Notes: generated by a model not told the origin, from the sequence alone. Shown: positions 17,886 through 50,989, numbered from the stretch's first letter. The stretch is DNA of 55,947 nucleotides from Prorocentrum cordatum (GCA_963575745.1 CAUYUJ010000123.1:62001-117947), one strand, 5' to 3'. Made by a program: numbers and translations.

Positions 17886-18001
17886 GTGATGCGCGGAGAG
17901 AGCCGGCGATCTTCCAGACAGAGTCAGGGAGCAGGGGGAAGTAGTATTCAGAATGTGTAGTTGTAGAGAGGAGTGATGTGGAGCAGAACAAAAGAGAGGA
18001 A

Positions 18002-18933
<932 letters not shown>

Positions 18934-19723
18934 AGAAGAAGAAGAAGGAGGAGGAGGAGGAGAGAGGAGAGATGCAAGCTAGGTGCGCTCGCGCCATATC
19001 TGACAACCCACCCGGGATCCGAAGGAGTGGGAGGAGCCGGAGGACCAAAGGAAGGCGGAGGAGGGGAAAAGATGGGGGCGACAATGATGAAAAAGGACTC
19101 GGAACCAGAAAAGTGGTCATCGCCTGGGCGAGAGCGCCATTCTGAACGACGGCAGCAAAGCGCCGATCCGAGAATGAGACCCACGTTGCAGCAGGAACGC
19201 CATTCTGAATCACCGAAGGTAATCGGATTGCAACGCAATATTAGAACACCGAAATCATTACATCTGGTGTGTAACATAAACAATACGCGGAGGGGAGCTT
19301 GATGCAACGTTTGGAACCCTGTGTACAAAGATAAAACTCGCTGAGGAGGAGGATAACGAAGAGCATGAGGAGGAGGAGGACGAGGAGAGAGGTAAGCTTG
19401 GCGCCGTGGTGCCATATCCGACATCCTACCCCTCCCTCCCATCCCTTCCCGTTGCGTTGATTTCTTCTCTATCCGCGGACGCGTGTCAAAACCGACCTGG
19501 AATTCCCAAACCTACCCCTATCGTGTTAGCGCAATCGGAAACGGAAAAGGGGAGCTGCGTCCATAGGAGGAGGATGAGGATGAGGAGGAGAAGGTTTGGG
19601 ACCGAGACCTTTCTGGCACTCTGGAGAGAGCCAGAGCGTTCTTCATACAGAACCACTCGGACTCACCTTATACGTTGCTTAACAGATTCAGTTCTCTTTC
19701 TGTTGTGATCTAAGCCGTGCATT

Positions 19724-21485
19724 TTGCCAGAGAGCAGACACAACACGGGAAAAGAGAAGAGTTGGCATCGACGCCTACGTGCACAAAGGGGAGCTTGCAG
19801 ACTACTATTACGTGCACTGCGAGCCAGAGATATCTTAGCATCACATCATTCTGCACAAAATATGACGGGCAAAGGAGGGACACGTAGCTCAGGACCAGGA
19901 GTGCAATGGGATTGTATGCAGTGTGGACGGTACGTAACAGGGCATCACTGGCGTTGCTTGTGTGGACAGACATATGGACAGAACCAACAACAGCAGAATT
20001 GGGCTCATCATGGTTCAGTATTGCCTGGTGGTGCACATTATGGTGGTACGGGTTCAGGTCGGGCGCAGGCACGTGAGGTCAAGTCCAGAGCATCATCAAG
20101 GCCGAGGGGACCTGGGACCAATGATCATGACAACAAAAAAGCTGTAAAGAAGTATCTAGCATCCGTCATGCCAGCTTGCAAGTCAGACGCAGAGAGTTCA
20201 CCGTTCTTTGAGCCCGCTCCTATGGAGATCGAAGGCCTCAAGAAGTTCAAGGCATCAGTGAGGCAGAAGCCCCAGGGCCTTGCCACTCTGGGTATTGCTG
20301 GGCGAAGCGTCGGGAAAGATTGCCTTGACACGGTCAACGAGATTTCTGTTCTGAAATATATGCTAAGCATGATGGAGCCAGTCACCAGGCAGCTCCATGA
20401 GTTGCGCCAGAGAAAGAATGTTACCACGGACAGAATGAAAGTGCTGGAGGGAAGGCTCAGATCTACACAACTGGACATACAGCAGTGCCAAGTAAGAGTT
20501 GCAGCACATCAAAACCAGCATCGAAGAGCTTGAGGAGCTTGAGGACTCGGACACCGAGATGGCGGATACGTGCGCGGACGATCGTGGCGGTGGAGGTGGA
20601 GGCGGGGCATGTGCAGCGGCTTCGGTCGCGGCTGAGCGTCCCGCCCCCCAGAAGATCCACGCGCCGCGTGGTGAGGTTCGCGCGCATCCAGCAGGCGCAG
20701 CCCCAGAACCGACGGTCCCAGGACCGCCCAAGGCTGAGCCGCCGCCGCTCGGATCACAGCTCGAAGGCATGATGCAGATTCTGTCCAACCTCATGGCAAA
20801 GCAGAATCACACGGAGTCGGTGCTCAACAGTCTTGGGACTTTCGCGATGCAGCAGGCTACGGCGGCCAGTGTCACCAGTGCGACAGGGGCAGGAGGATCG
20901 ACGGGAGTTTTTCCTGCTGGGGGACCTGCGGCGGCGACGGCAGGGCCAGCCCCCGAGGGAGCGCAATTCAAGACGCCGCCGCACAAATCCAGGGCGGCGA
21001 ACAGTCCAGGGCCAATGAGAGCACCGCCAACACCAGTGGGGGGATGTCCAACACCAGTCGCAACTACGCCAGTGGAGCCCTCGATCAAGGCGACAATGCC
21101 CAACTTCGGACAAAATGGAGATGGCGAGATACCTTGCATGTCACAGATCTCACCGACCCAGCCGTTTCATCACATGGAGATGGAGGATCCCCATATGCCA
21201 GCGCCGGAGACATCGGTAACGGATGGCAGTACGACGGCAAGTTCGACACCTATGGGAGCCCCATATACGACAGAGCGAATCGCCGAGCAGACTCGCAAGA
21301 GGAACGAGAGGGAGGCCGCAGCGGGGGCGGTCGAGCGCCCAGTTCCAGCAACACCAGAGGGCTCGCCGAGTGGTCTCACCGACGCGATGGGAGTTGTCAA
21401 CCTCGTGAGCCAGGCCACGCAGGAGACACCCGTAGACACCGAGACGGCCAGTCCGCCGCGCAAGGAGGCAAGGACCTCCGCGTGA
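19724..21485 (+). CDS. LINE B ORF1 (Zn-ribbon plus coiled coil), one frameshift near 20495
   Basis: WDCMQC...WRCLCG RanBP2-like ribbon and the shared ORF1 block SPFFEPAPMEIEGLKKF...EISVLKY. Removing one A in CAAGTAAGAGTTG joins ORFs 19724 and 20499. First ATG is at 19862. Confidence 0.75.
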
Positions 21486-22789
21486 GGCTGGGCGCAGTGC
21501 AAGTCAGATTTTTCCGAACAGATGAGGGGCCACCAATAATTTCTTCCCCCCCCCCATGCCACTCCAAGGCGTTCCATACTGGGACCTGTTGTTTGCAGTA
21601 TTGAAATCCCAGTGGGCTCATCCAGTTCGGAGAGCAGGGCATCATCCTGCCACAGTTTAGTTTCCCTTGACGTTGCTAGCGATGATAATGTCACTTGTCA
21701 GGCTGTTGAGAATATGTCGGGTAACCACGTAGGATCCAGTCTTGATTTCTCATGAGTTTCTTGGGCATGGGGAACCCCTAAGGAGTATGTTTTTCCTCGA
21801 GCTTGCTTGCACGTGTGTATGTGGAAAAAAGTTAGAGGTTATCGTTTTGCGGTTTTTGAGTTTTCATCTAGCTAGGTCGTGCAAGTCTCCAGCTGAGACT
21901 GCGCGCGCGATCAACTCATGCGAGCCAGAGCCTTTGAAGCATTCTGGTCTGAATGTTCAAGAGGCTGGGGGTGGGCGCTATCATTGTCTGGATTTCGCAG
22001 AGGGGTGTGCTAAGAGTAGAAACACCCCTCCCTCGGAAGACAATGACTGGGTGCCTGCTCTTGGCTCTCTATGGTGAGAAGCTTTAGATGGGGCGGGATG
22101 GGCTGGAATAGGGTGGGGAGGGGGCAGTCCGACTACACAGGTCTTGAGACCCGACGCTCCTGTCTTTGTTCCGCGTGAGGCCGAAGTCAGAGGGGCTTGG
22201 CCCAATCCGTTGGCACCAGCTTGGAGAGAGGAGGCATATCCCGCTTGCGATCGTGAGCCGCCCTGTCCCTTGTGGTGTATCGCAGAAGAAACATCACTGT
22301 TTGGGTTGCTCCATGACTTCTCGCTCGATGCTTGGATTTCGATTTACCATGCCCCGACGGTGCGTGTAACCACATCGTCTGAATTAAGCAATGTTTTGGT
22401 ATATCAAGGTTCGCTTCTAGGCTTGCAGGCAGCTGTTTCGTTTCCTAATATCCAGGTCAACGCTTTTCAGTTTCTCTGGGGCTCTCGGCTGAGTTTCGAA
22501 ACCTATCTGTGTTGTCCTGGGTTCACCTATTTTCATCCTGGGCCGATACTGGCCAAATTACTCCCACGCCGTTCTATCCCCCCCCCCCGACACTTCAACC
22601 TGTCGGGGAAGAGGCGAGGCATCAGGTACAGTTCCCCCACTCCAGAGCCCTCCTCCTGGCTCGGGCACTGCTCCTCTAGTTTGCCCAATGAGTCGTTTGG
22701 AATCCCTATATTTGATCATTCAGCGACATGGCAGGCTGATCTGGACAACCGAAACCGAAGGAATACAAATACCAGAGTTGGTTCAACTT

Positions 22790-23285
22790 GCCCTGGATAT
22801 GTGTCCGACGAGACAAGCGGACTGGACAGCATTTCATTTTTTCACTGACGGGTCCGTCAAGGACTTAGACATGCAGTCTGCCACGTGGGCGGTTGTCCGA
22901 ATATCTGAGGACTCGAACGGGCTCTCTTACACTGGGCATGTGCACGGGTATCTTGCAGACACCTGCAGGACACCAATTACCGCCAACAGACCCTCGTCAA
23001 CGGACGCGGAGTATGTAGGTGTGATGTGGGCTATTATTGCCATTATTTATGAAGTTGCCACGTTTGGTACCACGACAGCGACTATCAACACAGATTCATT
23101 GAATGTGGTTACGGCATTGCGAGGTGAACGAGCACTGGATACGTCTTGCAGGCTAGCGGTCATGACAAGAGTGCTATGGGATTTAGCTGGGACAATTGCA
23201 AAGGTTTCGATTTCTCATATTAAGGGTCACGATGGACACCCTTGGAACACTTTTGCCGACAAACTGGCCCTGGGGACCTCGAGGT
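22790..23285 (+). CDS. RNase H domain, N-terminal part of LINE B ORF2
   Basis: FFTDGS...STDAEYVG...INTDSLNV...HIKGHDGHPWNTFADKLA: all four RNase HI acidic residues plus the His loop. Confidence 0.88.
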
Positions 23286-23509
23286 GACTTGGTTCCACCT
23301 AGCTTTCCTTACGAACTGCTTGAGGTCACATTGCGCTCTCGTGAAAGGGAATGGGAATGGTTGAGTCAGCTGTCTGATAGTGAGCGAGCAGCTTATCCTC
23401 CGATTTCCTCCGAAGGGTTCTGTTCCTTCCCTTGTTGTGACAAGGTCAATGTTGGCCATGTACCGGACCCCTTGGGATCCTCCAAAGTTATCAAGGCCCA
23501 GGTAAGTTG

Positions 23510-24305
23510 CTCACTCACTGTTGTTCAATATAATGTTAAAAAACTGACGCGACGTGAGTATTACGGCGCAGCGGGGCGTAAAAGGCGAGCCCGTCGAGTC
23601 ATGGCGCGATCCCAACTAGTGGAAGAGGGTGTCCACATCGCGGGGATGCAGGAAACAAGGAACCCAAAAAGGCGATCGCTCATGCAAAGGTTTTGCTATT
23701 TTCTCCTCGGGAGCTGGGCCAGGTGATGACTCAGGCTTAGGGGTGGAGCTTTGGCTCAGTCTGGACATTCCGTATGCTCAAAAATATGGTAAAGATTTTT
23801 TTTTTTCAAAGCGTCATGTTCGAATTCTGCATTCCACCCCACGGATGCTTGTTGCCTGCATTAGGGCACCTGAGCTTTGTCTCACAGTTCTGGTTGGGCA
23901 CGCCCCCCACAGTAAGCTAGACGTCGCAGTCAGAAATAGCTTTTGGGCTGATGTGGCACAACAGACAGCAGACTGGTGCCCTGATCTTTTTCTTGTTGAT
24001 GCCAATGGGCGCGTTGGTTCACAGGTTTCCGAATTTGTTTCCGATCAAGGTTTCTCGCAAAAAGAAGATAGCAACGGGGCCAGTCTGCATAACATTTGTG
24101 CGATTTCGGGGACCCATTTGTTGAATGCGCAGACCGCAGCGGCAGATGATTACACGTGCACCTGCCCTGGGGGGGAGCACCATCGTATTGTCTACATAGG
24201 GTGCTCTCAATTTTTACGAGACTATGCTAAGAGCACCGAGGTGCTACATGATTTTGACACTGGGCTGAAAGGAAAGGACCATTACCCCCTCAAGGCCAAG
24301 TTTGA
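23510..24305 (+). CDS. APE-type endonuclease domain of LINE B ORF2 (frameshift near 23665)
   Basis: VVQYNV...IAGMQETR...GHAPHS...VDANGRVG...RIVYI...DHYPL (EEP motifs; the RIDY motif reads RIVY). Confidence 0.85.
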
Positions 24306-25179
24306 ATGGCAGCAAGCCGTCAAGTATCCCCTTCTTCAGGCTAAACCCATTGACATGAGGCGGCTTAAAAATCCTGATGATGTCGCCCATTTCAAGACAC
24401 TACTGAATGCCATTCGCCAACGAGAATGGGAGCTCAATGTTTCCAGTCATGCGCTGGAGGTGCTTCAGGATATCAATGATGCTGCCAATACTGCATATGC
24501 GAAGAAGGCGCTTCGAACCAGGAGGCAGTATGTTGACGATGATTCTCTCGTTCTCATACGATTCCGACGTGGGGTGCACAAAGCGCTTCGCACCTGGCAG
24601 GGGCGTGGCTCAGAGACTTGTGAGCGTAGGTTTTCTTCTTTTGCTTTCAGGGTGGTTGCTGGGGACCTAAAACTGCTCATTGGGACATGTGACTCCAGCT
24701 GGTGGGTTTCTCAGTTGCGAAATCTTGAGCAAGCCTCGATCCAGCGCCTTCGTGCCAGGATGGGTTTTGAGCAGTATTCGCAGGCTCTTCTGGTTTTTCT
24801 CACATCCACTGAAACGGTTTTGCATCATCTTTTAGAAGCAGATCGCACACGTTTGTTGGACAAGAGTGGAGATAACATCAACACTGCCATTGATGGTGCT
24901 CAGCCTCTCTCTGAGTGGACGGCAGTCAAGAAGTTGCTTTTGTGCGGGGGGAGGCCATCGAGGCCAAAACAGGGGCCCCCACCTCTCCCAATGATCAGGA
25001 CACCGCTAGGTCAGGTTTTAAGGGAGGAAGACGACATCGCCGATCACATCCAGCAGCACTTCTCGGGCGTTGAGATGGGCAAGGCAGCACAACCACAGGC
25101 TCTGGTTGACGACTATAATCAAATGTTGCCCCTTCTCGACACAACCTTCCCTCGTGATATTACAGTTGTTCCTACCATC

Positions 25180-26330
25180 TATGATGTTGAAGCGGGCCTC
25201 GCGAGGCTGAAAACTGGCCGGGTCCCTGGGGCCGATGGTTTCCGAGCTGAATATGGCAAGGCAGCCTCGAAGGAATTGGCGAGACTCGTGGCCCCCCTGC
25301 TAGTCAAGACAGCCATCGCAGCTAGGGAACCGATTGCATTTAAATCCGCACGATTGGGCACATGTCCCAAAGGTTCAGGGGATTTCACTTTGGCCGCTTC
25401 ACGTCGGAGCATTTTGGTTTCTCCAGTTATAACCAACATGTATCATACATGTTTAAGGAGTCTTGCCATGGGCTACTTTTATGCCTCAGTGCAATCAGTG
25501 CAGATGGGAGGAATACCTGGTCGGGGGTGCGACATTGCTGTCCTCACCTCGCGCTTGCTTTTTCAACTTGCGGAAATCCACGGGCTTTCGACCAGGGCTT
25601 TACTTCTGGAACAAAAAAAAAGCGTTTTACACCACCTTGAGGCAGTTTGTCTTGGCGCTCCCGCAAGACAGTGAGGATGTCGAGTACGTGCTTGCTCATA
25701 TGGATTTGCCCCCCCTGCTTTTAGAAGGGCTCAAGTCCCAACTGGCTACTAAGCCGATGTTTGAGGATCGGATTCCATCCGAACATCTCCTGGCCCTCAT
25801 TAAAGAGAGTCAGCGGGGGGCTTTCTGGAGAGTTGCTTCGGCATCTAACTATGCCCTGCCTCGCCGAGGCACCAGGCCAGGCACCGTTTTCCCAGCGGAT
25901 ATTTTCAATGTTGTTTTCCAGGGGGTTCATACCGACATCAATCGGGAGCTCCATGATGTTTATGATGTCCTGGCTTCGTTTGGTTTACCCACCACTGATT
26001 TATTTCTGGCAAGAGAAGCACAACTTGACACCAGAGAGTGGGGGACCTCCTTCGTGGATGATCTCACCCAGCCCTTTGTCACCTCTGAAGCGGGGCAGCT
26101 TCTAACGACTGCGCAGCGGGTGCTTGATGCTGTGTATCAAGCCTGCTGCATTCGTGGCGTAATCCCTAATGCTGCCAAAACGGTTTTCATTTTAGATTTT
26201 CGGGGAAAGGGTTCGATGGCAGCGAGACTGGATAAGAACGGAGATCCTCATCTCCATGTCAGGTCTGACGCATGGGACTTTCAAGCCAAGATTGTCACTG
26301 ATCACCGTGTACTAAGGTCCTTCCTCTCCC
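25180..26330 (+). CDS. Reverse transcriptase domain of LINE B ORF2 (frameshift in the A run at ~25613-25621)
   Basis: GRVPGADG...PKG...RRSILV...QMGGIPGRG...KAFY...RGTRPG...FVDDL...NAAKT. Confidence 0.9.
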
Positions 26331-27019
26331 CCACCAACAGCATGGCTACGGAAGTGGTTGCAAGATGCCACGGGGCCAAGTCAGCTTTAGCCCCCATCAA
26401 GAAGGTCATCGGACCTAGGGGCATGCTCAGCATTCGTAAAAAGGTGCTGTATGCAGAATGTTTAGCTAGCTCCGTGCTGCTTTACAATGCGGCAACTTGG
26501 CTCGAACTCTCACAAAACTTGTGGAACAAAAAGTACGCATCACACATGAACAGGTTTATCGTGCGGCTCTGCATCTTCCGCGCGCCAACAACTCAGGAGA
26601 AAAAGTCGCGTACTTTGAGGTGTTGGGCCAAGTTTCGCGCCTTCCTCTTAACGTAGTGCTTTCGGTGGCACGCCTTAGGTTATTAGCTCGGCTCATGGCT
26701 GGCTGTCCGGATATTCTGCGTGTTTGTTTGCAATATCTTTGTGGGCCGATTAGAGGCTGGATGGCTCTTATTGAGGCTGACCTAGGCTGGCTCACCTCTT
26801 TCCTTGATCCCAGCAAACGGCCGCAGGACAATGCTGTGCTCAGCTGGATCAGGATTATCAAAGACAGCCCTAAGGCCTTTCGTTCCACCTTGAAGATTGT
26901 TGCCTCCAGAGCAGTACGATTCTGGAACGACCAGTTCCACCTTGAGGCGTGGAACAGGAGGTGCAGGCAGCACCTTCGGGGGTCCCCCCTCGAGAAGCAG
27001 GTTGGGCCTGCGCCCGCAG

Positions 27020-27205
27020 TGAAGTGCCCCCATTGTCCTGCAGTTTTTGTTTCTGAACGTGATTACCACGTCCATTTGGGCAAGTTTCATGCCCCCCACA
27101 GTGCGCCCAAAAACTTTGTGGTGGGGACTTGCTGCCAGGCTTGCTGCAAAGATTTTCACACCCCTGGGAGGCTCCACACACATGTTTCCAGAGTTGTGCG
27201 TTGTC
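27020..27205 (+). CDS. Two C2H2-type zinc fingers in LINE B ORF2
   Basis: CPHCPAVFVSERDYHVHLGKFH and CQACCKDFHTPGRLHTHVSRVVRC. Confidence 0.75.
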
Positions 27206-27474
27206 GTCAGGCCTGTTTTTTTTTCTCGGGACGTTGTCTTGGGGATGAGACGGCCATTGCTGCGAATATGCTCGAGGTTCGTGAGCAATCCGCTGCGAAT
27301 CGCAAATCTGGCAAGCAAGATCATCAAACGGTCAAGCCCCCCAAGCGTTCCTTTGGACCCCCCGTTGCTCTACCAGGACATGGGCAGCAGCTACCACAGT
27401 TCGACGCGCCTGAAGAGGTACCGCCACCGCCACCGCCGCCAGTATTCAGCCCCTTGCGGGCACCGTGCAGGCCA

Positions 27475-28250
27475 CAGATGTACATCTTACATCTCTTTTC
27501 AGGATATCGACGACAGGACGACTTCCAACACCAGGTGGAAGTGGCTTTAGAGCGGTTCCAGGCTAATATTATAGTTTTATCTATAGATGTCATCAACCAC
27601 CCTGTACGGGGTGACTTAACCAACGATAATCCAGTGCTAATGTGGATTCGTTTGGCTAAATCAGGACGCGTGGCTGGGGCCATGGCAGGTCCCCCCTGCG
27701 AAACGTCGTCGATTGCCCGTTTCAGGGAACCTGTTCAAGGAGCCCGTGGGCCCCGTGCGAGACCACCCAGACCTCTGAGGCTTGCATCACAGCTGTGGGG
27801 ATTACCGTTTGTCTCTGAGCGTGAGTCTGATCAGCTCTCTCTTGGGAACAGACTGTTGAGAACCACACTTGAATTTGCAGTGGTTTGTTGGAGGCTGTTC
27901 ATTCCTGAAGTTGTGGAGCACCCTGCAGAGCCTTGGAGCCCCCCAGAGGCCCCGAGCTCTTGGCACTTGGAGCTCACCAGAGACCTTCTTCAACAACCAG
28001 GGGTGGAGAAGCACACTATACATCAATGTGTTTTTGGGGCCCCCTCGCGCAAACCTACGTGTCTCATGGGTGTGCATTTTGGTGCCCTTCGGGATGCCCT
28101 TCGGGCTAGGCCTCAAAGGGGTCCTCTGTAACCATCATATGGGGCACATTGCTCTCGAAGGTGTGGATCAGCTGGGGGTCTGGAACACCGCACATGCAAA
28201 AGTTTACCCCAAAGGGCTATGCGAGCTTCTAGGGAGGGCCTTTGCTCAGG
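27475..28250 (+). CDS. C5 DNA cytosine methyltransferase-like (DNMT) domain at the C-terminus of LINE B ORF2 (frameshift near 28120)
   Basis: Motifs in order: I LHLFSG, II LSIDV, III GDLT, IV AGPPCET (catalytic PC), VI VVEHP, VIII QCVFGAPSRKPT, X-like AKVYPKGLCELL. Confidence 0.85.
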
Positions 28251-29580
28251 AGGCATGGGTGAAGTTTCCCTGGTTATTCGATACCCCCCACCGCCACTAC
28301 CCACTCCCGCATCGACTGTGACGACACGAAGGTTACGATTCAAACAACCACCACGACCCGCAGTGCGGGTACATGCCGATAGGCCGCGACAAGAAGGATG
28401 GAATACTAAGTTTGTACCTACAGATACGCAACATGTATGGACTTATGAAGACGAGTTATGGTTAAGACAGCAATATAATCTTGACGAGACATGCGATGAG
28501 TGGTTACCACCGTCATTGCGAAGATACTACGTGCCACTGGACCCGTACATGGACACGAGAACGATTGGTATGGATTGCATGCGACAAAATAGGCCAGACA
28601 GAGAGGATGCAGGGCAGAGCTAACTCACTTTCTTCTATGTTGCCCTGCCCCGGCTCACCTGATGTCTCGCCTAACAGCAACTTTGTAAGCCTCTTGGGGG
28701 CCTCACCAGTACAGTGTAGGGACCAGAGGTAAGTGAAGGGCTGGACTATGAAGGTGATGCCGTGCCCACCCAAGTGCCGCCAGTGTACACTCACTCTAAA
28801 AAGTAGTAGTAGTCCAGTGCTGTCTACTATGGTATATAGCTCGACATGGTCAGTAGCTGACCCTCTGGGGGTGAAGGCTTCTTTTCCAAATATATTACCT
28901 ATTTCCTTTTTCCCTCTTATAGTGTACGCCCACTTTAAAAGGCAGTAGCCCATACTGCACTGCATGATCAGGGAGGGAGAGGGTAGAGATGGGTGGGGTT
29001 CCATGACCTATGGCTGCCAATCTCACCTGACTTGATTGCCCCTGTACGGCCTGGTGCAGCTGTGTGGCTGCACAGAGCCGAGGCTTTACACTGTTGCTGC
29101 TGGCTGCTGGCTCTGCTGCCGCCGCCGCTCTTACCCCCCATCCCCCTCTTTTTGCCGTCCACCCTCTGTGATCGGGCTTCCACTCTCTGCCCTAAAGCCG
29201 CGAACGAACGAACGAGGAGGAGGAGAAGGAGGAGAAGGAGGAGGTGGAGGTGGCGTGTGAGCAGGAGGAGGACGAGAAAAGAGGAGGGCAGGACGACCAG
29301 CAGAAGAGCTGGAGCGGAAGGAGCTGGAGAAGCGGGAGGACCATGAGAAGACGCACGCGACAAAAACCAAGGGGGGCGACAGCGATGCAACAAAAGGAAT
29401 CGGATCCAGGAGAGCGGCCCGCGCGGGGGCGAGAGCGCCTCTCTCTGAACGGCGGGCGCAGAGAGCCGGTTCGAGAATGAGGGCCACGCTGCAGCGGGAG
29501 CACCAGTGGTGCTCCAGAAGTGGCACTTCTGAAGCACCGACGACAAGCACATAGAAAACACACGCAGCAGAAAAACATAG

Positions 29581-30280: not shown

Positions 30281-30579
30281 GACGAATAGCAGCAGCAGAA
30301 GAGCTGGAGTGGAGGGAGCGGGAGGGGCAGGAGGGCCAGGGGAGGGCGGAGGACGGGCAGGAGGGGAGCGACGACGATGCAAAGAGGGCTCGGATCCAGG
30401 AGAGCGGCCCGCGCCGGGGCGAGAGCGCCGATCGGAACGGCGGGGGCCAAGCCCCGATCCGAAAACGGGGCCCCCGCTGCAGCGGGAGCACCACTCTCGA
30501 AACACCGAAGACAATCGGACCATAAACGATAAGCAGACGACAAACATTGAAATCCTGAGCGTTACATATATATATATAT

Positions 30580-39982: not shown

Positions 39983-40548
39983 AAGGGGGAGGGGAGGAGA
40001 CCGGGGGAGGAGGAGGGGAGGGGACGAAGGAGGGAGGAGGAGGGGAGGGAGGGAGGGAGGGAGGGAGGGAGGGAGGGAGGGAGGGAGGAGAAGGAGGAGG
40101 AGAAAGAGGAGGAGAAGGAGGAGGAGGAGGGGGGGGGATGAGGAGGATGAGGAGGATGAGAGGAGGAGGAGGAGGAGGAGAAGGAGGTGGAGGAGGAGGA
40201 GAGGGAGAGGAGGAGGAGGGAGGAGGAGGAGGAGGGAGGAGGAGGAGGAGGAGGAGGAGGAGGAGGAGGAGGAGGAGGAGGAGGAGGAGGAGGAGGAGGA
40301 GGAGGAGGAGGAGGAGAGGAGGAGGAGGAGGGGGAGGAGGAGGAGGAGGAGGAGGAGGAGGAGGAGGGGAGGAGGAGGAGGAGGAGGAGGAGGAGAGGAG
40401 GAGGGAGGAGGAGGAGGAGGAGGAGGAGGAGGAGGAGGAGGAGGAGGAGGAGGAGGAGGAGGAGGAGGAGAGGAGGAGGAGGAGGAGGAGGAGGAGGAGG
40501 AGGAGGAGGAGAGGGAGGAGGAGGAGGAGTAGGAGGAGGAGGGGGGGG
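39983..40548. repeat. (GGA)n microsatellite
   Basis: Directly visible. Confidence 0.97.
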
Positions 40549-41289
40549 GCCGGGATTTTGGATTGCGCTGCTGATGAAGCGCATGGCCTGTCAGCTAATG
40601 GCGGCGCTGCAGCTAGCAGAGGCAGTTAGCACAGTCAACTCGTGTGGCTGTGCTAAGAGGCGAAGCTCGCAAACTCTGCACGGGCACCTGAAGTCAAGTC
40701 AGACAGTAACTTCCTCCACCCATCCTGCCTAACCCCACGAATCCCACCCAGTCCCATAGTATTAACTACGCGCGCAACTGGGTGCGAGGCAGCCATGTGG
40801 ACGCAGAGCGTCTGATACTAGGCGGAGAAGGGTTGAAACTTTCAACCGTGGCCAGGAAGTGGCGGCAGACAGGGTGGGCAATCCTGAACGGTTGCTCTCG
40901 GCGTATCCCTGGCCGCGCCAGGACATCACGCTACACAGAGATGTACTCGCTGACTTATCCCCTCCACAATGCTACCAGCCACTCCCACGCCCATCCTTAT
41001 CTGCAAGACAAAAGCAAGAAAGGCTGGCGGCAGGCGGGGGCTGCGGCGTGCAGCCGCATGAGCGCCTGGCTGGCGGCGCGCGGACCGACGGACACTCGGG
41101 GGTTCGGTGCCACACGCAACGGGTGTGTGGTTAGCGACGGACTACGCTCACCGAGCCCCCTGCCGCTGCCCCCCGCGGGCCAAGGCTTGAAGCTAGACAG
41201 TCGGGCGGTGACAGAACCGCGAGGGGGCGCACCTCTGCCCAGGTTGACGGTGGAGAGAGAGCAGGCGAGCGGGTGGCAAGCAGGCGGCG

Positions 41290-42050
41290 GCGGAAAGCAG
41301 CAAGAGAGGCAGGCACATGCCTCTCCGATCTCAGCACGTCCGCCCAACCTGCCATACCCAACCCCCTCTCGAATAAGAGCGCCCTATGGCCCCCTCCCCT
41401 CACGGTTCGACCCTTGGTTCGGCCGACCTGGCTGACACTCGAGCTGGCGACAGTTGCGCACGTCAACTGCTTTCAGTGAAACCTGTTGCGCACCGTCTGA
41501 AATTTAGTCTCAGAGAGAGAGGGCAAGAGGGCGGGGCAGCACATGCAGGCAGGCCGTGCACAAGAGAGAGCAAGAGAGGCGGGCTGCCGCTCTCTCTGAC
41601 TGTTGCTACACTGCCTCGCTGCTGATACCTCCAACTGCCCGACCTACCAATCCCAGCCCTCTCCCGACTACACGACGCGGTCTTCACGACCGCTGTGGCT
41701 CTCAAAGCCGCTGGGCTCAACGACTTTACCTCGGCGAGAGCCGCTGTGGGGCGGGGGCTTCGCGAGTTCCTTTCGGAGCGCCCACTATGGCCCCCTCCCC
41801 TCACGGATCGACCCTCGGTTCGGCCGACAAGGCTGACGCTCGAGATGGCAACAGTTGCGCATTGCGACTGCTGTCAGTCAAACGTGATGCGTCTTATCTG
41901 AAAAATCTGGTCTCAGAGGGAGAGAGGGCAAGAGGGCGGGTCGGCACTGCAGGCAGGCCGAAGCGATGAAAGAGCAAAAGAGGCGGGCTGCCGCTCTCTC
42001 CGCTTGCTGTTACCCTGCCCCGCTGCTAGCACCTCGACCAATCCCCCAAC
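41290..42050. repeat. Diverged ~401-bp tandem repeat (2 units plus a partial) inside element C
   Basis: TATGGCCCCCTCCCCTCACGG at 41385 and 41786; AGAGGCGGGCTGCCGCTCTCTC near 41575 and 41979. Confidence 0.85.
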
Positions 42051-43236
42051 GTTCCCTCCATACTACAAAAATCACCTGAAACTGCGGCCATCGGATACTC
42101 CTGGAAACTGAAGGTGGCCGGCAGACACACATCCATGGTCCAAGAGAGGCTGACTGCAGCAAAACTGATCCACGTGAAAGTTAGGCCTACTGTGGCGCAA
42201 CTCTGGGTCAGACGGCTATGGAATGCAAGCTCGTTCAGCGGACGTGATTCCAGCTCAGCTCGGAACTGGCGGATGAGCTGGGGGTTATCTGTATACCACC
42301 ACGGGGCTAGGCAAACGAGGAGGGCACGCATGAACCATAGCACCAGCCACGAGGCAAGGTCTTAGCACAGCTCGAAACACTGGCAACATAGGCGGAGAGA
42401 TCAGAGCACGGCCACACAAGTACCCCACTGTCAGCCTGCTCGCCTGTCAAACCCCAAGACGGTGGTCCACCCAAGTGCCGTGTGCGTGGCGCGGGTGTCT
42501 GTGAGCTTCTAGGAAGGTGAGATAAGAGAGGTAACGAAAGGCTCGAAAGACGAAATAGTTGTGAGAGCAAGGCCAGGGCTGACAAAGTGCCTGACTGAAA
42601 TGCAATCCCTTACCCATCCACCGCCTACACCTGAGGCCCTCCACCCAACATCCTATTTACTCGTGCGCATTATCAAACAGCCCTACCCCGAAACCGGGTT
42701 GGAAAGTCCATGGGGCTATTCGCTGAGCGAGTCGAATCCGACGTCGCTCTCTAGCTTGCGCACGCTTGGCAGCAATTAGGGTACGCAAGTCTGGCGTGAG
42801 CTCAACGGGCTGTGGGGGCGGCGGGGGACACGGAGATTGGGAAACGGGTGCAAAGGGCGGAGCAAGCGAGCAGACGGGAGTGAGAGAGCAAGATAGCCAG
42901 GGCTGGCACAGTAGCCTGACTAGATCAGTGCAATCTGGAATTGGGCAGCGTGGCTGCTGCTGGGCCTCGGGCTCCATCCGAGGTGAGTGTCAGTCGGCCT
43001 GACTGGCGCAGCGCCAATCGCAGGCGGGCCTTGAGACGGCTCAGCGGCAGCCCTCTCGCCCCCCTTGGCCCGCCCGCCATGACACATCACCCCAGCGTCG
43101 ACGTCGCTCCCTCGCTGCCCTCGGTGGAGCCGGCGCGGCCGCCGCACGGCATGAAGCCATCTGGCGCTTCGCGCCGTGGGCTGTGGCTGCGGCTGTGCCT
43201 CTGGCGGCGGCTGGCTGCACCTGCAACGGCATCCTC

Positions 43237-44877
43237 TCATGCCTCTGCGGCGACGGCGGCACGGCCGTGCGGCGACGGTGGCAGGGCGCCGCGGCCGCGG
43301 TGACTGCGCGCACCTGGCCGCGCTGACGCTTGGCGAGCCAACGCGTCTCGCAGTCCCTGCTGTCCATCAGGGCGACGCGCACGTTCTGCAGCCTTCCTCT
43401 CAGCACGCTGAGCTGCCCTCGCCTTGCGGGCCGCCTCGGCCGCGGCAGCCGCAGCAACATCCTCCTCGGCGCTGACTGGCGCCTCGACGGCGTCGGCGGC
43501 GGCGGGTCCAGCAGCGCCCCATGCCGCACCCACGGCGGCGCCCGCAGGCGGGGGCCCCCCCTGGGGGCCGCGGGCCATAGGTGCGTCGGCCGGCACGGGG
43601 TAGGCCGCGGCAGGAGCCTCAGGCCTGGGCGCGGGGGCCACTGGCCCCAGGCGCTGGGGGGGCCCTGCAAAGGGCCGCACCTCGGGCGCAGGCGCGTCGC
43701 CATGCGCCACTCCACCGCGCGCCGCCGCCATCTGACCCTGCATCGTCGTCAGCAGCTGCGTGAGGCCGACGAGCTGCTGGGTGAGGGCTGCCTGGCCAGC
43801 CTGCAGCTCCGCGATGGCCGCGATGGGCGGCGCGCGGTCGGGCGGCGTGGCTGGGGCTGCATCGCCCTCAGCGCCTGCCACGGGCGTCGGCGTGATGGGC
43901 TCCTCCATCGGCTCGTCGCCCGTGGGGGCCATGGCCTCGAGCTGCTCCAGGAGCGTCTTGGCGCGGCCGAGGGCCTCGGCGCGCTGACGCACCTTCGCCT
44001 CCAGCTCCGCGAGCTCCTCACGCGCCTGCGCAGCCGCGGCCTCGGCCTTCTCCAGCTTGGCCTGAGCCCTCTGGACGAAGCTGCGCTGGCGGTCGCATCG
44101 TACGCCAGCTGGGCGGGCCAGGATGATCATGCTGAGCTGCACGGCGTACTCCTCCTCCTGCGGCCGCCTCTGCTCCAGACTCATGCCGAGCTCGATGGCG
44201 GCCTGCGGCCTCTTGCCCGTGGCGGCCGCCATCTGGCGCAGTGAGCGCCTGTGGGCTGTGAGCCCGCGCTCATCCGATGGCGGCTCGACCCAGGCTGGGT
44301 GGGCCCGCGCGTCCGACGGCAGCGCGGGAAGGATGCCGAGCGCGGGGTTGCGGCCGTCCTCGTCGCCATCCGATGCATCAGATTCGCCTCCAGCAGAACG
44401 CCTCCGTCGCCCATCGCCGTCGGCGGAGCGCCGGCGGCGGCTCGAGGCCGACCTCGGCCGCGGATCGCCTCCGTCGTCCTCCGTGCCCTCGTGCTCGAAG
44501 CGGACTCGCGAGGCTGACCGCGGCCTCGGCTCGGCCTCGGGCTGACGTGCCTCGCCCTTGCCGCCGCGGCGCCGACGCCTCGAGGCAGAACGAGGCAGGC
44601 GGCCGTCACCGCGCGGGCCCGCGCGCGGGCGCGCTGTCCCTCCTCCGTCTCCATGCATTGGACCATGCTCGGGAAGAGGGAAGCAAGTGCGGCACAGGGC
44701 GTCAGCAGGGCCGTTGAGTCCTCCGCACGACGGGCACCACCATCCAGGCGGCGGCGGCGGCACGGCCCACGGCGGAGTGCTGCCACTCTGCCCGCTGTGG
44801 CCGCCGCCCGAACTGCCCTTGCCGCTGCCCTTGCGGCCCTGGCCGCCTTTGCCCCCGCCTCCAGCACGGCCTGACAT
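43237..44877 (-). CDS. ORF1 of element C (RanBP2-type Zn ribbon, coiled coil); probably extends to TTG at 45018
   Basis: MSGRAGGGGKGGQG start, WWCPSCGGLNGPADALCRTC, shared block HPAWVEPPSDERGL. Confidence 0.75.
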   Translation of the reverse strand: MSGRAGGGGKGGQGRKGSGKGSSGGGHSGQSGSTPPWAVPPPPPGWWCPSCGGLNGPADALCRTCFPLPEHGPMHGDGGGTARPRAGPRGDGRLPRSASRRRRRGGKGEARQPEAEPRPRSASRVRFEHEGTEDDGGDPRPRSASSRRRRSADGDGRRRRSAGGESDASDGDEDGRNPALGILPALPSDARAHPAWVEPPSDERGLTAHRRSLRQMAAATGKRPQAAIELGMSLEQRRPQEEEYAVQLSMIILARPAGVRCDRQRSFVQRAQAKLEKAEAAAAQAREELAELEAKVRQRAEALGRAKTLLEQLEAMAPTGDEPMEEPITPTPVAGAEGDAAPATPPDRAPPIAAIAELQAGQAALTQQLVGLTQLLTTMQGQMAAARGGVAHGDAPAPEVRPFAGPPQRLGPVAPAPRPEAPAAAYPVPADAPMARGPQGGPPPAGAAVGAAWGAAGPAAADAVEAPVSAEEDVAAAAAAEAARKARAAQRAERKAAERARRPDGQQGLRDALARQASARPGARSHRGRGALPPSPHGRAAVAAEA

Positions 44878-45700
44878 CAGCCCGTTGCTGTGGTGCGCGC
44901 GCAGCCTCGCAGCGGCAGCGGCGACGCGCAGCAAGGTGCGCGACTGCGTGCGCCGCTCGCGAGCGCGCCTGTGCCAGGCGGGCTCGCGCACGCGCAGCCG
45001 GCGCCGCGCCCTGCGCAAAGCGGGCGCCCGCGCCGTCGTGCGCCCGCCCACTCTGGGGGCGGCGCACGCCGCAGCACAGCAGCACGGCCGGCCCGCACGC
45101 CACCAGCAAGGGCGCGGGCGAGCGCGTATGGCCGCCGAGTCCCGCGAGGCTCGCAGGTATCCTGGATACCTGCACCCAAAAACCTCGGGCCGGGACGGCG
45201 GCTGGGGGACCGGGGGAGGGGGAGGAGGAGGCGGAGGAGGGGGAGGAGGAGGGAGGAAGAAGGGGGGGAGGGGGAGGAAGGGACAGGGACGGGAGGCGGA
45301 GGGGAGGAGAAGGGGAGGGGAGAGCGCCCCGCGCGTCGCTGGCCGCCCAGCGGGCCCGACGGGCCACAGCGCCGCGCCGCGCGAGACCGCTCGGCTGACC
45401 GCCCCCGCGGCCGCCGCCACCGCAGTGCCCTCTCGCTGCCCTCCTGGAGGAGTCTCTATTTTTCCTTGGGAGAGAAACGCTGCGAGCTCGTGCTCAACAA
45501 GGTCGCGGCTTCTGGCGGCTTGACGCCTGATGTGCCCTCGACCAGGGCTCGGAGCGCGTAGCGCTGCGGGCGGCCACGGTGGGTTCCATCCTCGCCTGCA
45601 GCAGCTCGCCGAAAAGCAAAGGCGCGTGCTGCCACGCCCCGAGCTTCTCGCAGCCGACGGTTGCGGTTCCTAGAACCTGTAGTCGGGCCCCACTTTCACC

Positions 45701-46785
45701 TCAAACACCTCGACGAGCAGCAACGAGGCCAGTTGCACCAGCCTCCAGCTTCGACCCCAACACCTCGTTGAGCAGCGACAGGGCCCGCTGCCACTGCCCC
45801 CCGGTGCTGCACGCGCTGATCCCAGCACTGTAGCTGATGATATTGGGATCCAACTTCGACGCCGACATCTCGCTGAGCAGCGACAGGGCCCGCTGCCACT
45901 GCTGACCTTTCACGCAAGCACTGATCCCAGCACTGAAGCTGATGACAGTGGGCTCCAGCTCCGACCCCAACATCTCGCTGAGCAGCGACAGGGCCCGCTG
46001 CCACTGCTGACCTTTCTCGCAAGCGCTGATCCCAGCGTTGTAGCTGATGACAGTGGGCTCCAACTTTGACCCCAACATCTCGCTGAGCAGCGACAGGGCA
46101 CGCTGCCACTGCTGACCTTTCTCGCAAGCGCTGATCCCAGCGTTGTAGCTGATCATAGTGGGTTCCAGCCTCGTCTCGACCATGTCGCTTAGCAGCGACA
46201 GGGCCAGCTGCCACTGCTGACATTTCTCGCAAGCACTGATCCCAGCGTTGTAGCTGATGACAGTGGGCTCCAGCTTCGACACCAACATCTCGTTGAGCAG
46301 CGACAGGGCCCGCTGCCACTGCTGACATTTCCCGCAAGCGCTGATCCCAGCACTGTAGCTGATGACATCGGGCTCCAACATCGACCCCGACATCTCGCTG
46401 AGCAGCGACAGGGCCCGCTGCCACTGCTTACCTTTCTCGCAAGCGCTGATCACGCCGTTGTAGCTGATGACATCGGGCTCCAGAATCGACCCCAACATCT
46501 CGCTGAGCAGCAACAGGGCCCGCTGCCACTGGTGACCTTTCTCGCAAGCGCTGATCCCAGCACTGAAGCTGATGACATCGGGCTGCGACTTCAACACCAA
46601 CATCTCGCTGAGCAGCGACAGGGCCCGCTGCCACTGCTGACCTTTCACGCAAGCGCTGATCCCAGCGTTGTAGCTGATGACAGTGGGCTCCAACTTTGAC
46701 CCCAACATCTCGCTGAGCAGCGACAGGGCACGCTGCCACTGCTTACCTTTCTCGCAAGCGCTGATCCCAGCATTGTAGCTGACTA
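45701..46785 (-). CDS. Pentatricopeptide repeat (PPR) array, 10 x 35 aa; probably an internal or terminal exon, or an orphan fragment
   Basis: 105-bp repeats encoding VISYNAGISACEKGQQWQRALSLLSEMLGSKLEPT. No ATG; a possible AG acceptor lies near 46783. Confidence 0.92.
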
Positions 46786-47426
46786 GGGCTAAGCCGTGGA
46801 CTCCGTCCACGACCTCTGTCTCGAATGGTCATCGGAGGACCGGCGGAGAGTTCGCCGAGAACCTATAAGCACGGATGCGGCTGGGGCGGTAGTAGCGAGA
46901 CCGCGCCTTCGCGCCCGAGCTCTTGCAGCGCTCCAGCAGCCTGGCCCAGGCGCATGGCTCGTTCGCCCCTCTCCCAGTGGTGGCAGTCTTGAAGTCTCTC
47001 GGGGGCTGTGCTGTTGGCCTCTGCTGCTCTCCTGCTGCCCTCTGCTGCTGGTCCCTGCTGCTTTTTCTGCTGACCTCTGACGCCCTCTGCTTCTCTCTGC
47101 TGCTCTCTGCTGCTCTGTGCTGCTTTCTGCTGGTATCTGCTGCTCTCTGCCAGAGGAGGAGGAGGAGGGGGAGGAGGGGGTGGATGAGGAGGAGGAGGAG
47201 GAGGAGGAGGAGGAGGAGGAGGAGGAGGAGGAGGAGGGGGAAGGACCTTTGCTGGTGTCTGTGCGCCAAAGCCGAAGCCCATCTGAGGCGCCTCGGAAGC
47301 GCCCGGGGACAGGGCTCGGGAGGCCCTCGGGGAGAGCCGCCAGGGGGCGCCGGGGAGGCTCGAAGGATCTCCAGGGGGGGCCCAGGAAAGCTTCACAAGA
47401 GGGCGTGACATTGAGGAGATCGGTCT

Positions 47427-50890: not shown

Positions 50891-50989
50891 TGCCTCCTCC
50901 TCCTCCTCCTCCTCCTCCGCCTTCTTTCCTCGATCCTGTATGCCCTGAATATCTGTCTTTATCTGTATATATATACATATATATATAAG

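What the first reader, a model, noticed from the sequence alone, without database searches (positions are those of the whole stretch)
28755..29125. Conserved base-paired 3'-UTR RNA element shared by elements B and C
Seen, in the same order on each sense strand: (1) TGCCCACCC-N3/4-TGCCGCCA (B 28763-28782; C 40880-40860); (2) a short hairpin (B GCAGTA-GCCCA-TACTGC; C CGTAGT-TAAT-ACTATG); (3) GATGGGTGG (B 28988; C 40724); (4) CTGACTTGA..TGCCC (B 29027; C 40702); (5) CTGCT(G/A)GCTGC. Block 1 can pair long-range with block 3 in both: B CCCACCCA..TGCC with GGTA..TGGGTGGG, and C CCACCC..CTGCC with GGCAG..GGGTGG. The intervening sequence differs in length and content. Inference: a structured cis element for RT recognition, or an uncharacterised ncRNA/ribozyme. 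A guide role for the DNMT is only speculation.
Basis: partly seen in the sequence, partly recalled or inferred. Interest (0 to 1): 0.7.

Follow-up and report, generated by a model that had tools for sequence, protein, structure and literature searches.

The report
Shared 3'-UTR motifs of two dinoflagellate LINEs
Two related jumping genes (non-LTR retrotransposons) in a dinoflagellate-like genome keep a few identical short sequence blocks near their 3' ends, probably a recognition signal for their own copying enzyme, but a conserved folded RNA is not shown.

Summary
All five motif blocks are at the stated coordinates.

- **Above chance.** Four non-repetitive blocks (TGCCCACCC-N3/4-TGCCGCCA, GATGGGTGG, CTGACTTGA) plus an extra shared TACTATGG form a collinear chain. 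It ranks 1 of 2,174 window positions, and 0 of 2,000 shuffles reach it.
- **Not above chance.** The hairpins and block 5 are chance or low complexity. Gapped similarity is not above background.
- **The elements are related.** Their ORF1s belong to one family (hhalign E 9.5e-6). B is a decayed RNaseH-endonuclease-RT-DNMT-like LINE. C has ORF1 but no ORF2.
- **Pairing is unproven.** Blocks 1 and 3 can pair in both, but the blocks do not vary between B and C. The helix has probability 0.30-0.49 in C and 0.00-0.06 in B.
- **Not family-wide.** The blocks are absent from 80 metagenomic relatives. Most of these carry a different short 3' stem-loop with real covariation, which B and C lack.

Verdict: a lineage-specific LINE 3'-UTR cis-module, probably for reverse-transcriptase recognition. 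Nothing supports a ribozyme, an ncRNA or a DNMT guide.

The parts
19595..29216 (+). Element B: a decayed LINE. It has ORF1 (zinc finger and coiled coil, frameshifted near 20500), RNase H, an endonuclease/RT region, a C2H2 finger, a DNMT-like domain and a 3' UTR.
   Evidence: Pfam RNase_H. tblastn of family proteins covers 22751-28270. There is an in-frame stop at 28129-28131. Candidate target-site duplication GAGGAGGAGAAGG at 19582 and 29217. The ends are approximate.
28624..29216 (+). 3' UTR of B, about 590 nt, ending in GAAC x3. It has no poly(A).
   Evidence: ORF2 stop at 28621-28623. A diverged B-like contig stays alignable to 29178. No A-run.
28763..28782 (+). Block 1 in B: TGCCCACCC-AAG-TGCCGCCA.
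28942..28958 (+). Hairpin 2 in B (6 bp). It is not above chance.
   Evidence: Pair probability 0.78-0.96, but such hairpins occur 23.6 times per kb. In one B-like contig, T28956C breaks a pair.
28982..28997 (+). 3' strand of the proposed long-range helix in B (GGTA ... TGGGTGGG). It includes block 3, GATGGGTGG, at 28988-28996.
29018..29041 (+). Block 4 in B (CTGACTTGA-T-TGCCC) inside a 5-bp hairpin, CAATC/GATTG.
   Evidence: Probability 0.56-0.77 in the context of the whole UTR.
29097..29107 (+). Block 5 in B (CTGCTGGCTGC). It is a low-complexity GCT/GCC repeat.
40546..45230 (-). Element C: ORF1 of the same family, then about 2.7 kb without an ORF2. It is flanked on both sides by (CCT)n.
   Evidence: The ends are approximate.
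43237..44886 (-). ORF1 of C (549 aa from the first ATG after the WHRR..HHS stretch). It has a RanBP2-like zinc finger and a coiled coil.
   Evidence: 18 relatives with E<=0.001. The family profile matches B's ORF1 with E 9.5e-6.
40860..40880 (-). Block 1 in C: TGCCCACCC-TGTC-TGCCGCCA.
40755..40770 (-). Hairpin 2 in C (6 bp with one G-U). It is not above chance.
40716..40729 (-). 3' strand of the proposed helix in C (GGCAG-GAT-GGGTGG). It includes block 3 at 40724-40716.
   Evidence: (probability 0.30-0.49)
40682..40713 (-). Block 4 in C (CTGACTTGA-N7-TGCCC) inside a 7-bp hairpin, GAAGTTA/TGACTTC.
   Evidence: probability 0.71-0.95
40609..40619 (-). Block 5 in C (CTGCTAGCTGC).

Best explanation
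B and C are two diverged members of one dinoflagellate non-LTR retrotransposon lineage. B is a decayed full-length copy with ORF1, RNase H, endonuclease, RT and a C-terminal DNMT-like domain. C keeps only ORF1 and the ends.

The shared 8-9-nt blocks in their 3' UTRs are the parts of a cis-acting 3' module that selection has kept, while everything between them has changed in sequence and length. The most likely role is recognition of the element's own RNA 3' end by its reverse transcriptase (ORF2p), or by ORF1p, before target-primed reverse transcription. This would also let an ORF2-less element such as C be copied in trans.

What is shown and what is inferred:
- Shown: the blocks, their order, the kinship of the two elements, the lack of ORF2 in C, and the fact that relatives carry conserved 3' structures.
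- Inferred: the function.
- Open: whether blocks 1 and 3 (with TGCC:GGYA) act as a long-range helix closing a variable domain, or as linear binding sites. I put the helix at about 45%.
For: - The blocks are exact, collinear and unique in the window. Chain score 43 ranks 1 of 2,174, and 0 of 2,000 shuffles reach it.
- The comparison is a natural one. Both elements share an ORF1 family (18 relatives; hhalign probability 82.7%, E 9.5e-6 over 118 columns) and the WHRR..HHS stretch, which is also present in relatives P0050 and P0059.
- ORF1 identity is only about 21-25%, and no DNA or translated similarity is detectable elsewhere. Neutral DNA should therefore keep nothing.
- C has no ORF2 remnant: 0 tblastn hits outside B for 5 family proteins.
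- B-type elements are multi-copy: 154 contigs of one run lie on 27400-29200 at 80% identity or more.
- In an alignment anchored on the blocks, the consensus fold contains the block 1:block 3 helix. It scores -27.5 against -15.2 +/- 4.1 for column shuffles, and 1 of 200 shuffles is as low.
- The helix is in C's minimum-energy fold, with probability 0.30-0.49.
- Relatives show that this LINE family uses conserved 3' structures. A stem-loop in 44 metagenomic 3' UTRs is 80.9% paired against 66.5% when shuffled, with 53 double-change cells against 19, 0 of 500 shuffles as high, and 21-38% paired when slid. It is found again in 12 of 36 loci left out of the model. L022 and L024 have a long-range helix with probability about 1.0.
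- A published figure legend states that Symbiodinium DNMT-LINEs have conserved 5' and 3' UTRs (PMC5890265, passages read).
Against: - Only two sequences carry the blocks, and there is no covariation.
- Significance is moderate, not overwhelming.
- Gapped alignment ranks only 4 of 398.
- The exact blocks are not enriched on the sense strand of 80 relatives: TGCCCACCC 0 on + and 2 on -; GATGGGTGG 3 and 1; CTGACTTGA 2 and 3.
- In B the long-range helix has probability 0.00-0.06 in two contexts. Fold energies are ordinary: z +0.51 and -0.94.
- B-like copies in public runs change bases in blocks 3 and 4 (A28989T and A29035T in one contig; both blocks altered in a metagenome contig). T28956C breaks hairpin 2. 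These may be dead copies, so the weight is small either way.
- The extreme 3' ends of B and C are not alike.
- Whether C was ever mobilised is unknown.
Confidence: 0.55

Rival explanations
1. Chance. A few exact 8-9-mers happen to line up in two GC-rich stretches that a careful reader compared, and there is no shared function.
For: - Single 9-mer matches are plentiful: 214 between B and C.
- 1% of random box pairs reach the chain score.
- Alignment-based scores do not separate C from controls.
- With one mismatch allowed, block 1 and block 3 co-occur in the relatives as often as chance predicts, 11 against 12.6 expected.
- The hairpins and block 5 are at chance level.
Against: - The pair is rank 1 of 2,174, and 0 of 2,000 shuffles reach it.
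- Most of the random pairs that score as high are low-complexity, whereas these blocks are not.
- The match sits at the corresponding end of two elements that independent protein evidence shows to be related.
- The spacing from block 4 to block 5 is 84 nt in B and 81 nt in C.
Confidence: 0.17
2. A strictly structural element. The long-range helix (block 1 with block 3, plus TGCC with GGYA) and the hairpin that presents CUGACU are the functional unit, and sequence matters only through pairing.
For: - Complementarity is present in both elements, and the consensus fold is better than 199 of 200 column shuffles.
- C's minimum-energy fold contains the helix.
- Block 4 sits in a hairpin whose stem differs between B and C (CAAUC/GAUUG against GAAGUUA/UGACUUC), with probabilities 0.56-0.95.
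- The nearest relatives, L022 and L024, have TGCC(C/T)TCC ... GATGGGAGGAGGGC. The central base is swapped in a complementary way, and their long-range helix has probability about 1.0.
Against: - If only pairing mattered, the blocks should have drifted by compensatory change, yet they are identical in B and C.
- In B the helix has probability 0.06 or less.
- Hairpins of this size are expected by chance, 70 per kb for 5 bp with loops of 8-16 nt.
- The likeness to L022 was noticed after looking. It uses another register in the predicted fold and is not supported by alignment (z 1.4 to -1.5).
Confidence: 0.2
3. A free-standing ncRNA, a self-cleaving ribozyme, or a guide for the element's DNMT-like domain.
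For: The only support is circumstantial: the ORF2 C-terminal domain folds like a C5 cytosine methyltransferase, and block 1 is C-rich.
Against: - No Rfam family matches either region, even at E up to 10.
- Fold stability is ordinary.
- The blocks lie inside the element's own transcript, not in a separate unit.
- No expression data could be obtained.
Confidence: 0.03

Closest known systems
3'-UTR recognition elements of 'stringent' LINEs and their non-autonomous partners (for example eel UnaL2/UnaSINE1 and R2; recalled from the literature, no paper read here)
   Same: It is a short conserved module in the 3' UTR of a non-LTR retrotransposon. It is shared with a second element that lacks its own RT, there is no poly(A) tail at the end, and the rest of the UTR is free to vary.
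   Different: Here the module is spread over about 280 nt as four separated blocks rather than one terminal stem-loop. It lies about 150-190 nt from the 3' end. Structure and RT binding are untested.
SymbioLINE-Dnmt of Symbiodinium (de Mendoza et al. 2018, PMC5890265; passages and a figure legend read)
   Same: It is a dinoflagellate LINE with a cytosine-methyltransferase-like domain. The legend states TSDs, conserved 5' and 3' UTRs and no poly(A) tail, and B and C fit these three points as far as they can be seen.
   Different: The paper places the DNMT in ORF1, upstream of the RT ORF. In B and its relatives the DNMT-like domain follows the RT in ORF2, and ORF1 is a zinc-finger/coiled-coil protein.
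The short 3' stem-loop of the Symbiodiniaceae-type relatives found here (model R1)
   Same: It has the same protein family, the same position just after the ORF2 stop, and presumably the same job.
   Different: It is a different sequence and architecture: a GAATTCA box, a GGCCGCAGC..GCC stem-loop, then A5-15 and TATATA, all within 37-93 nt. B and C have no match (best E 1.2, on the wrong strand and place).

Membership tests
LINE 3'-UTR cis element recognised by the element's RT | Lies in the 3' UTR of a non-LTR retrotransposon, on the sense strand | tested here: met
   B: ORF2 with RNase H and an RT/endonuclease/DNMT-like region matched by family proteins. The stop is at 28621-28623, and the blocks lie 140-420 nt downstream. 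C: the blocks lie downstream of ORF1 on the sense strand.
LINE 3'-UTR cis element recognised by the element's RT | Conserved between independent lineages or partners while the flanking UTR diverges | tested here: inconclusive
   Met for the single pair B/C. Not met in 80 distant relatives. Other subfamilies of the same genome could not be reached because no genome is held.
LINE 3'-UTR cis element recognised by the element's RT | Conserved secondary structure supported by covariation | tested here: inconclusive
   Complementarity and the consensus fold give z -3.0. There are no compensatory changes between B and C, and helix probability is 0.00-0.06 in B against 0.30-0.49 in C.
LINE 3'-UTR cis element recognised by the element's RT | Needed for RT binding or retrotransposition | not testable with these tools
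   Needs binding or retrotransposition assays.
   With filters off over the whole window, there is one match at E 1.2, at 23801-23838 on the minus strand, inside B's coding region. No GAATTCA, GGCCGCAGC or A-run lies at the 3' ends of B or C.
Rfam families, including self-cleaving ribozymes | Score at or near a family's gathering threshold | tested here: not met
   Best scores are 18.7 bits against a threshold of 96 (B region) and 17.4 against 31 (C region), all with E>=0.77.
SymbioLINE-Dnmt (PMC5890265) | DNMT encoded in ORF1, upstream of the RT ORF | tested here: not met
   The DNMT-like domain (27400-28131) lies downstream of the RT in B and in P0012, P0002 and P0014. ORF1 has no such domain.
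SymbioLINE-Dnmt (PMC5890265) | C5-MTase domain present | tested here: met
   Model with pLDDT 80.9. All 22 PDB matches with E<=0.001 are C5 cytosine methyltransferases, though TM is only 0.31-0.42. Pfam PF00145 matches 1 of 12 members, at E 0.12.
SymbioLINE-Dnmt (PMC5890265) | TSDs, and no poly(A) tail | tested here: inconclusive
   B has a candidate 13-nt direct repeat, but it lies inside a GAG-type microsatellite. B and C have no A-run. The metagenomic relatives, in contrast, end in A5-15.

The most novel reading that the evidence does not exclude
The DNMT-like domain at the end of ORF2 reads the element's own RNA. It would bind the C-rich block 1, held in the long-range helix with block 3, and methylate a cytosine there. 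This would mark self RNA or cDNA for reverse transcription or protect it from silencing. On this reading the 3' module is a methyltransferase docking site rather than, or as well as, an RT handle.
Probability: 0.04. Interest if true: 0.8.

Novelty: new member of a known kind. Interest (0 to 1): 0.3.

Why it matters
Dinoflagellate genomes are huge and full of LINEs whose biology is almost unstudied. A defined 3' recognition module, shared by a full-length element and an ORF1-only relative, would give a handle on three questions: how these elements choose their template, which non-autonomous elements they drive, and how the odd DNMT-like domain fits in. As it stands this is an ordinary kind of feature, a LINE 3'-UTR cis element, seen in only two copies.

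Tried and rejected
- **Whole-genome search:** no genome is held for this window.
- **Earlier findings of the scan:** none by place, sequence or words.
- **blastn, tblastx and tblastn of B against the window:** nothing links B and C apart from a weak ORF1 hit.
- **Block 1 pattern in viral contigs:** 21 hits. None of the 21 has block 3 or block 4, so they are chance matches.
- **Public runs:** no RNA holder is listed, so nothing can be said on expression or on transcript ends. Contig depth along the UTR was not used, as the tool warns against it.
- **Protein search with C's ORF1 in the word-indexed database:** no hit. The exhaustive search then found 18.
- **Protein search with the antisense ORF across B's UTR (28516-29007, minus strand):** this was meant to fish out other UTR copies, but found none.
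- **UTR alignment against the nearest relatives:** local alignment of the B and C UTRs with L022-L025 is not significant, z 1.4 to -1.6.
- **Coding reading of the blocks:** rejected. The spacings differ by non-multiples of 3 (12 against 13; 39 against 22), and the sense frames have stops.
- **Symbiodiniaceae-type element in B or C:** rejected.
- **GAATTCA 33 nt after the stop of the ORF ending at 157 (minus strand):** a 7-mer seen 4 times in the window, with no stem-loop or poly(A) behind it. Not pursued.
- **Literature:** one search for a dinoflagellate LINE 3' stem-loop found nothing relevant (listing only).

Full report
**What the window is.** The window is GC-rich eukaryotic DNA. It contains a PPR-repeat gene at 45701-46828 on the minus strand. 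It also contains retroelements whose nearest protein relatives carry Symbiodinium gene-model names. I therefore treat it as dinoflagellate or dinoflagellate-like. No whole genome is held for it.

**Element B** (about 19595-29216, plus strand).
- ORF1 has a zinc finger and a coiled coil.
- An RNase H domain follows (Pfam).
- Family proteins then match a long region by tblastn, from 22751 to 28270. It covers the endonuclease, the RT, a C2H2 finger and a C-terminal domain with the motifs LFSG and GPPCE.
- A model of that last domain (pLDDT 80.9) matches only C5 cytosine methyltransferases among its 22 PDB hits with E<=0.001, though TM-scores are modest at 0.31-0.42. Pfam barely sees the domain: 1 of 12 members, E 0.12.
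- B is a decayed copy, with an in-frame stop at 28129-28131 and frame changes.
- ORF2 ends at 28621-28623, soon after a VPLDPY motif that relatives share. The finding therefore lies in a genuine 3' UTR.
- A candidate 13-nt direct repeat (19582 and 29217) would put the 3' end near 29216, after GAAC x3 and without poly(A). The repeat lies in a microsatellite, so this is tentative.

**Element C** (about 40546-45230, minus strand).
- C has an intact ORF1 (43237-44886).
- It has no trace of ORF2: five family proteins gave tblastn hits only in B.
- An exhaustive search found 18 relatives of C's ORF1.
- A profile built from them matches B's ORF1 (hhalign probability 82.7%, E 9.5e-6, 118 columns).
It is also present in relatives P0050 and P0059.
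- B and C are therefore related elements, and comparing their 3' ends is legitimate.

**The observation.**
- TGCCCACCC, GATGGGTGG, CTGACTTGA and an extra shared TACTATGG each occur once on the plus strand (in B) and once on the minus strand (in C) in the whole window.
- The collinear chain of exact matches of 8 nt or more scores 43. That is rank 1 of 2,174 window positions (next best 35), and 0 of 2,000 dinucleotide shuffles reach it.
- The evidence is moderate. B and C share 214 exact matches of 9 nt or more.
- 202 of 20,000 random box pairs reach 43, 174 of them low-complexity pairs.
- Gapped alignment ranks C only 4th of 398 controls.
- blastn and tblastx see nothing.
- Block 5 lies in a GCT/GCC repeat that contigs of unrelated organisms also match. 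With it included, a low-complexity region beats C.
- The two hairpins are predicted with high probability, but such hairpins occur 23.6 times per kb here. They carry no weight.

**Is it base-paired?** The complementarity is real.
- In B, CCCACCCA pairs with TGGGTGGG, and TGCC pairs with GGTA.
- In C, CCACCC pairs with GGGTGG, and CTGCC pairs with GGCAG.
- On an alignment anchored at the blocks, RNAalifold recovers this helix with an energy of -27.5. Column shuffles give -15.2 +/- 4.1, and 1 of 200 is as low. This restates the observation that the conserved blocks are complementary. It is not independent proof.
- Thermodynamics is mixed. The helix has probability 0.30-0.49 in C but 0.00-0.06 in B. 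In one other context B's centroid does contain it.
- Neither UTR is unusually stable: z +0.51 and -0.94.
- B and C are identical in the blocks, so no covariation exists. The only difference in the helix is G-C in C against G-U in B.
- Block 4 sits in a hairpin with a different stem in B and in C, but chance expectation for this is high.

**Other family members.** An alignment of the DNMT-like domain (A3) retrieved 80 metagenomic loci with 33-44% identity.
- The B/C blocks are not enriched on the sense strand there.
- *Symbiodiniaceae-type relatives.* Most of these relatives have a different 3' UTR. It runs 37-93 nt and holds a GAATTCA box and a GGCCGCAGC...GCC stem-loop. It ends in A5-15 followed by TATATA.
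- On 44 non-redundant sequences, a two-helix structure is 80.9% paired against 66.5% when shuffled. It has 53 double-change cells against 19, 0 of 500 shuffles reach it, and slid controls are 21-38% paired.
- A covariance model of it finds 12 more copies among 36 loci left out of the model (one is a near-duplicate of a training row). All lie on the sense strand just after the ORF2 stop.
- The model finds nothing at the 3' ends of B or C.
- *Closest relatives.* L022 and L024 have a third UTR type, with a long-range helix of probability about 1.0.
- That type contains TGCC(C/T)TCC and GATGGGAGG, which resemble blocks 1 and 3 with the central base swapped in a complementary way. The loosened pair of motifs co-occurs only 4 times in 873 kb: in B, C, L022 and L024.
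- I loosened the motifs after seeing L022. With one mismatch allowed, co-occurrence is at chance (11 against 12.6 expected). The predicted helix uses another register, and the UTRs do not align significantly. This is a lead only.

**Public runs.** One run holds 154 contigs of B-type sequence at 80% identity or more, so the family is multi-copy.
- A 262-nt contig at about 90% identity keeps the GGGTGGGG core and CTGACTTG. It changes A28989 and A29035 and breaks hairpin 2 (T28956C).
- A metagenome contig has both blocks altered.
- Individual copies decay neutrally after insertion, so this neither supports nor refutes selection on active lineages.

**Verdict.** The shared blocks are most likely the conserved parts of a lineage-specific 3' cis-module of a LINE, probably used for template recognition by its RT, and retained by an ORF1-only relative. 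That the module is a conserved base-paired structure is possible, at about 45%, but not shown. Rfam offers no ribozyme or ncRNA match, and nothing tests a link to the DNMT-like domain. The kind of element is known, and a published legend already notes conserved UTRs in Symbiodinium DNMT-LINEs (PMC5890265). The architecture here differs from that paper, because the DNMT-like domain follows the RT instead of lying in ORF1.

Noticed in passing
L027-L099 (for example L046:2798-2864 and L027:3876-3942); alignment A4, model R1: Metagenomic relatives of B's ORF2 end in a short conserved 3' UTR: a GAATTCA box, a two-helix stem-loop (GGCCGCAGC..GCC) with clear compensatory changes, then A5-15 and TATATA. 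It is seen in 44 aligned loci and in 12 of 36 loci left out of the model. There is no Rfam match, and one literature search found no description.
   Followed up: yes
L022:2066-2230 and L024:1577-1740 (L025 is related): The closest relatives have another 3' UTR type. A pyrimidine tract plus TGCC(C/T)TCC pairs over about 85 nt with GGAGGGC(A) plus GGAAG(A/G)AA, with probability about 1.0. A local hairpin changes CATGCC/GGCATG to CATAC/GTATG between the two loci.
   Followed up: partly
window 26470-28623 (+); P0012, P0002, P0014: The ORF2 architecture is RNase H, endonuclease, RT, C2H2 finger, then a divergent C5-methyltransferase-like domain, and ends near a VPLDPY motif. The published SymbioLINE-Dnmt has its DNMT in ORF1, so this may be a different or undescribed LINE clade.
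   Followed up: partly
It is part of the predicted N-terminus in two relatives. It may therefore be coding, upstream of the first ATG, rather than 5' UTR.
   Followed up: partly
window 19714-19735 (+): Near B's 5' end there is a sequence that, from memory, resembles the dinoflagellate spliced leader with a few one-base deletions. This would fit retrotransposition of a trans-spliced RNA. It was not tested with any tool.
   Followed up: no
window 19565-19594 and 29214-29245; 45231-45260 and 40545 downward: Both elements are bounded on both sides by GGA/CCT-type microsatellites. B has a 13-nt direct repeat, GAGGAGGAGAAGG. This may reflect insertion into such repeats or simply their abundance.
   Followed up: partly
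window 19015-19227, 29311-29505, 30312-30519: Sequences flanking B are 73-77% alike and recur with a period of about 1 kb downstream of B. B seems to sit in a tandemly repeated region.
   Followed up: no
window 48153-51032 (-): There is a different retroelement fragment with Pfam RVT_1 and RNase_H domains. It is unrelated to B's family by tblastn.
   Followed up: no
window 18000-19000 and 40000-40560: Very long trinucleotide repeats (GTA/GTT-like, and CCT/GGA) give extreme GC skew (0.88 and 0.55).
   Followed up: no
window 28609-28648 (+): A perfect 7-bp pairing, CAGGGCA/TGCCCTG, brackets B's ORF2 stop codon. A pyrimidine tract plus TTGCC(C/T)T right after the stop is also seen in L022, L024 and L025.
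   Followed up: no
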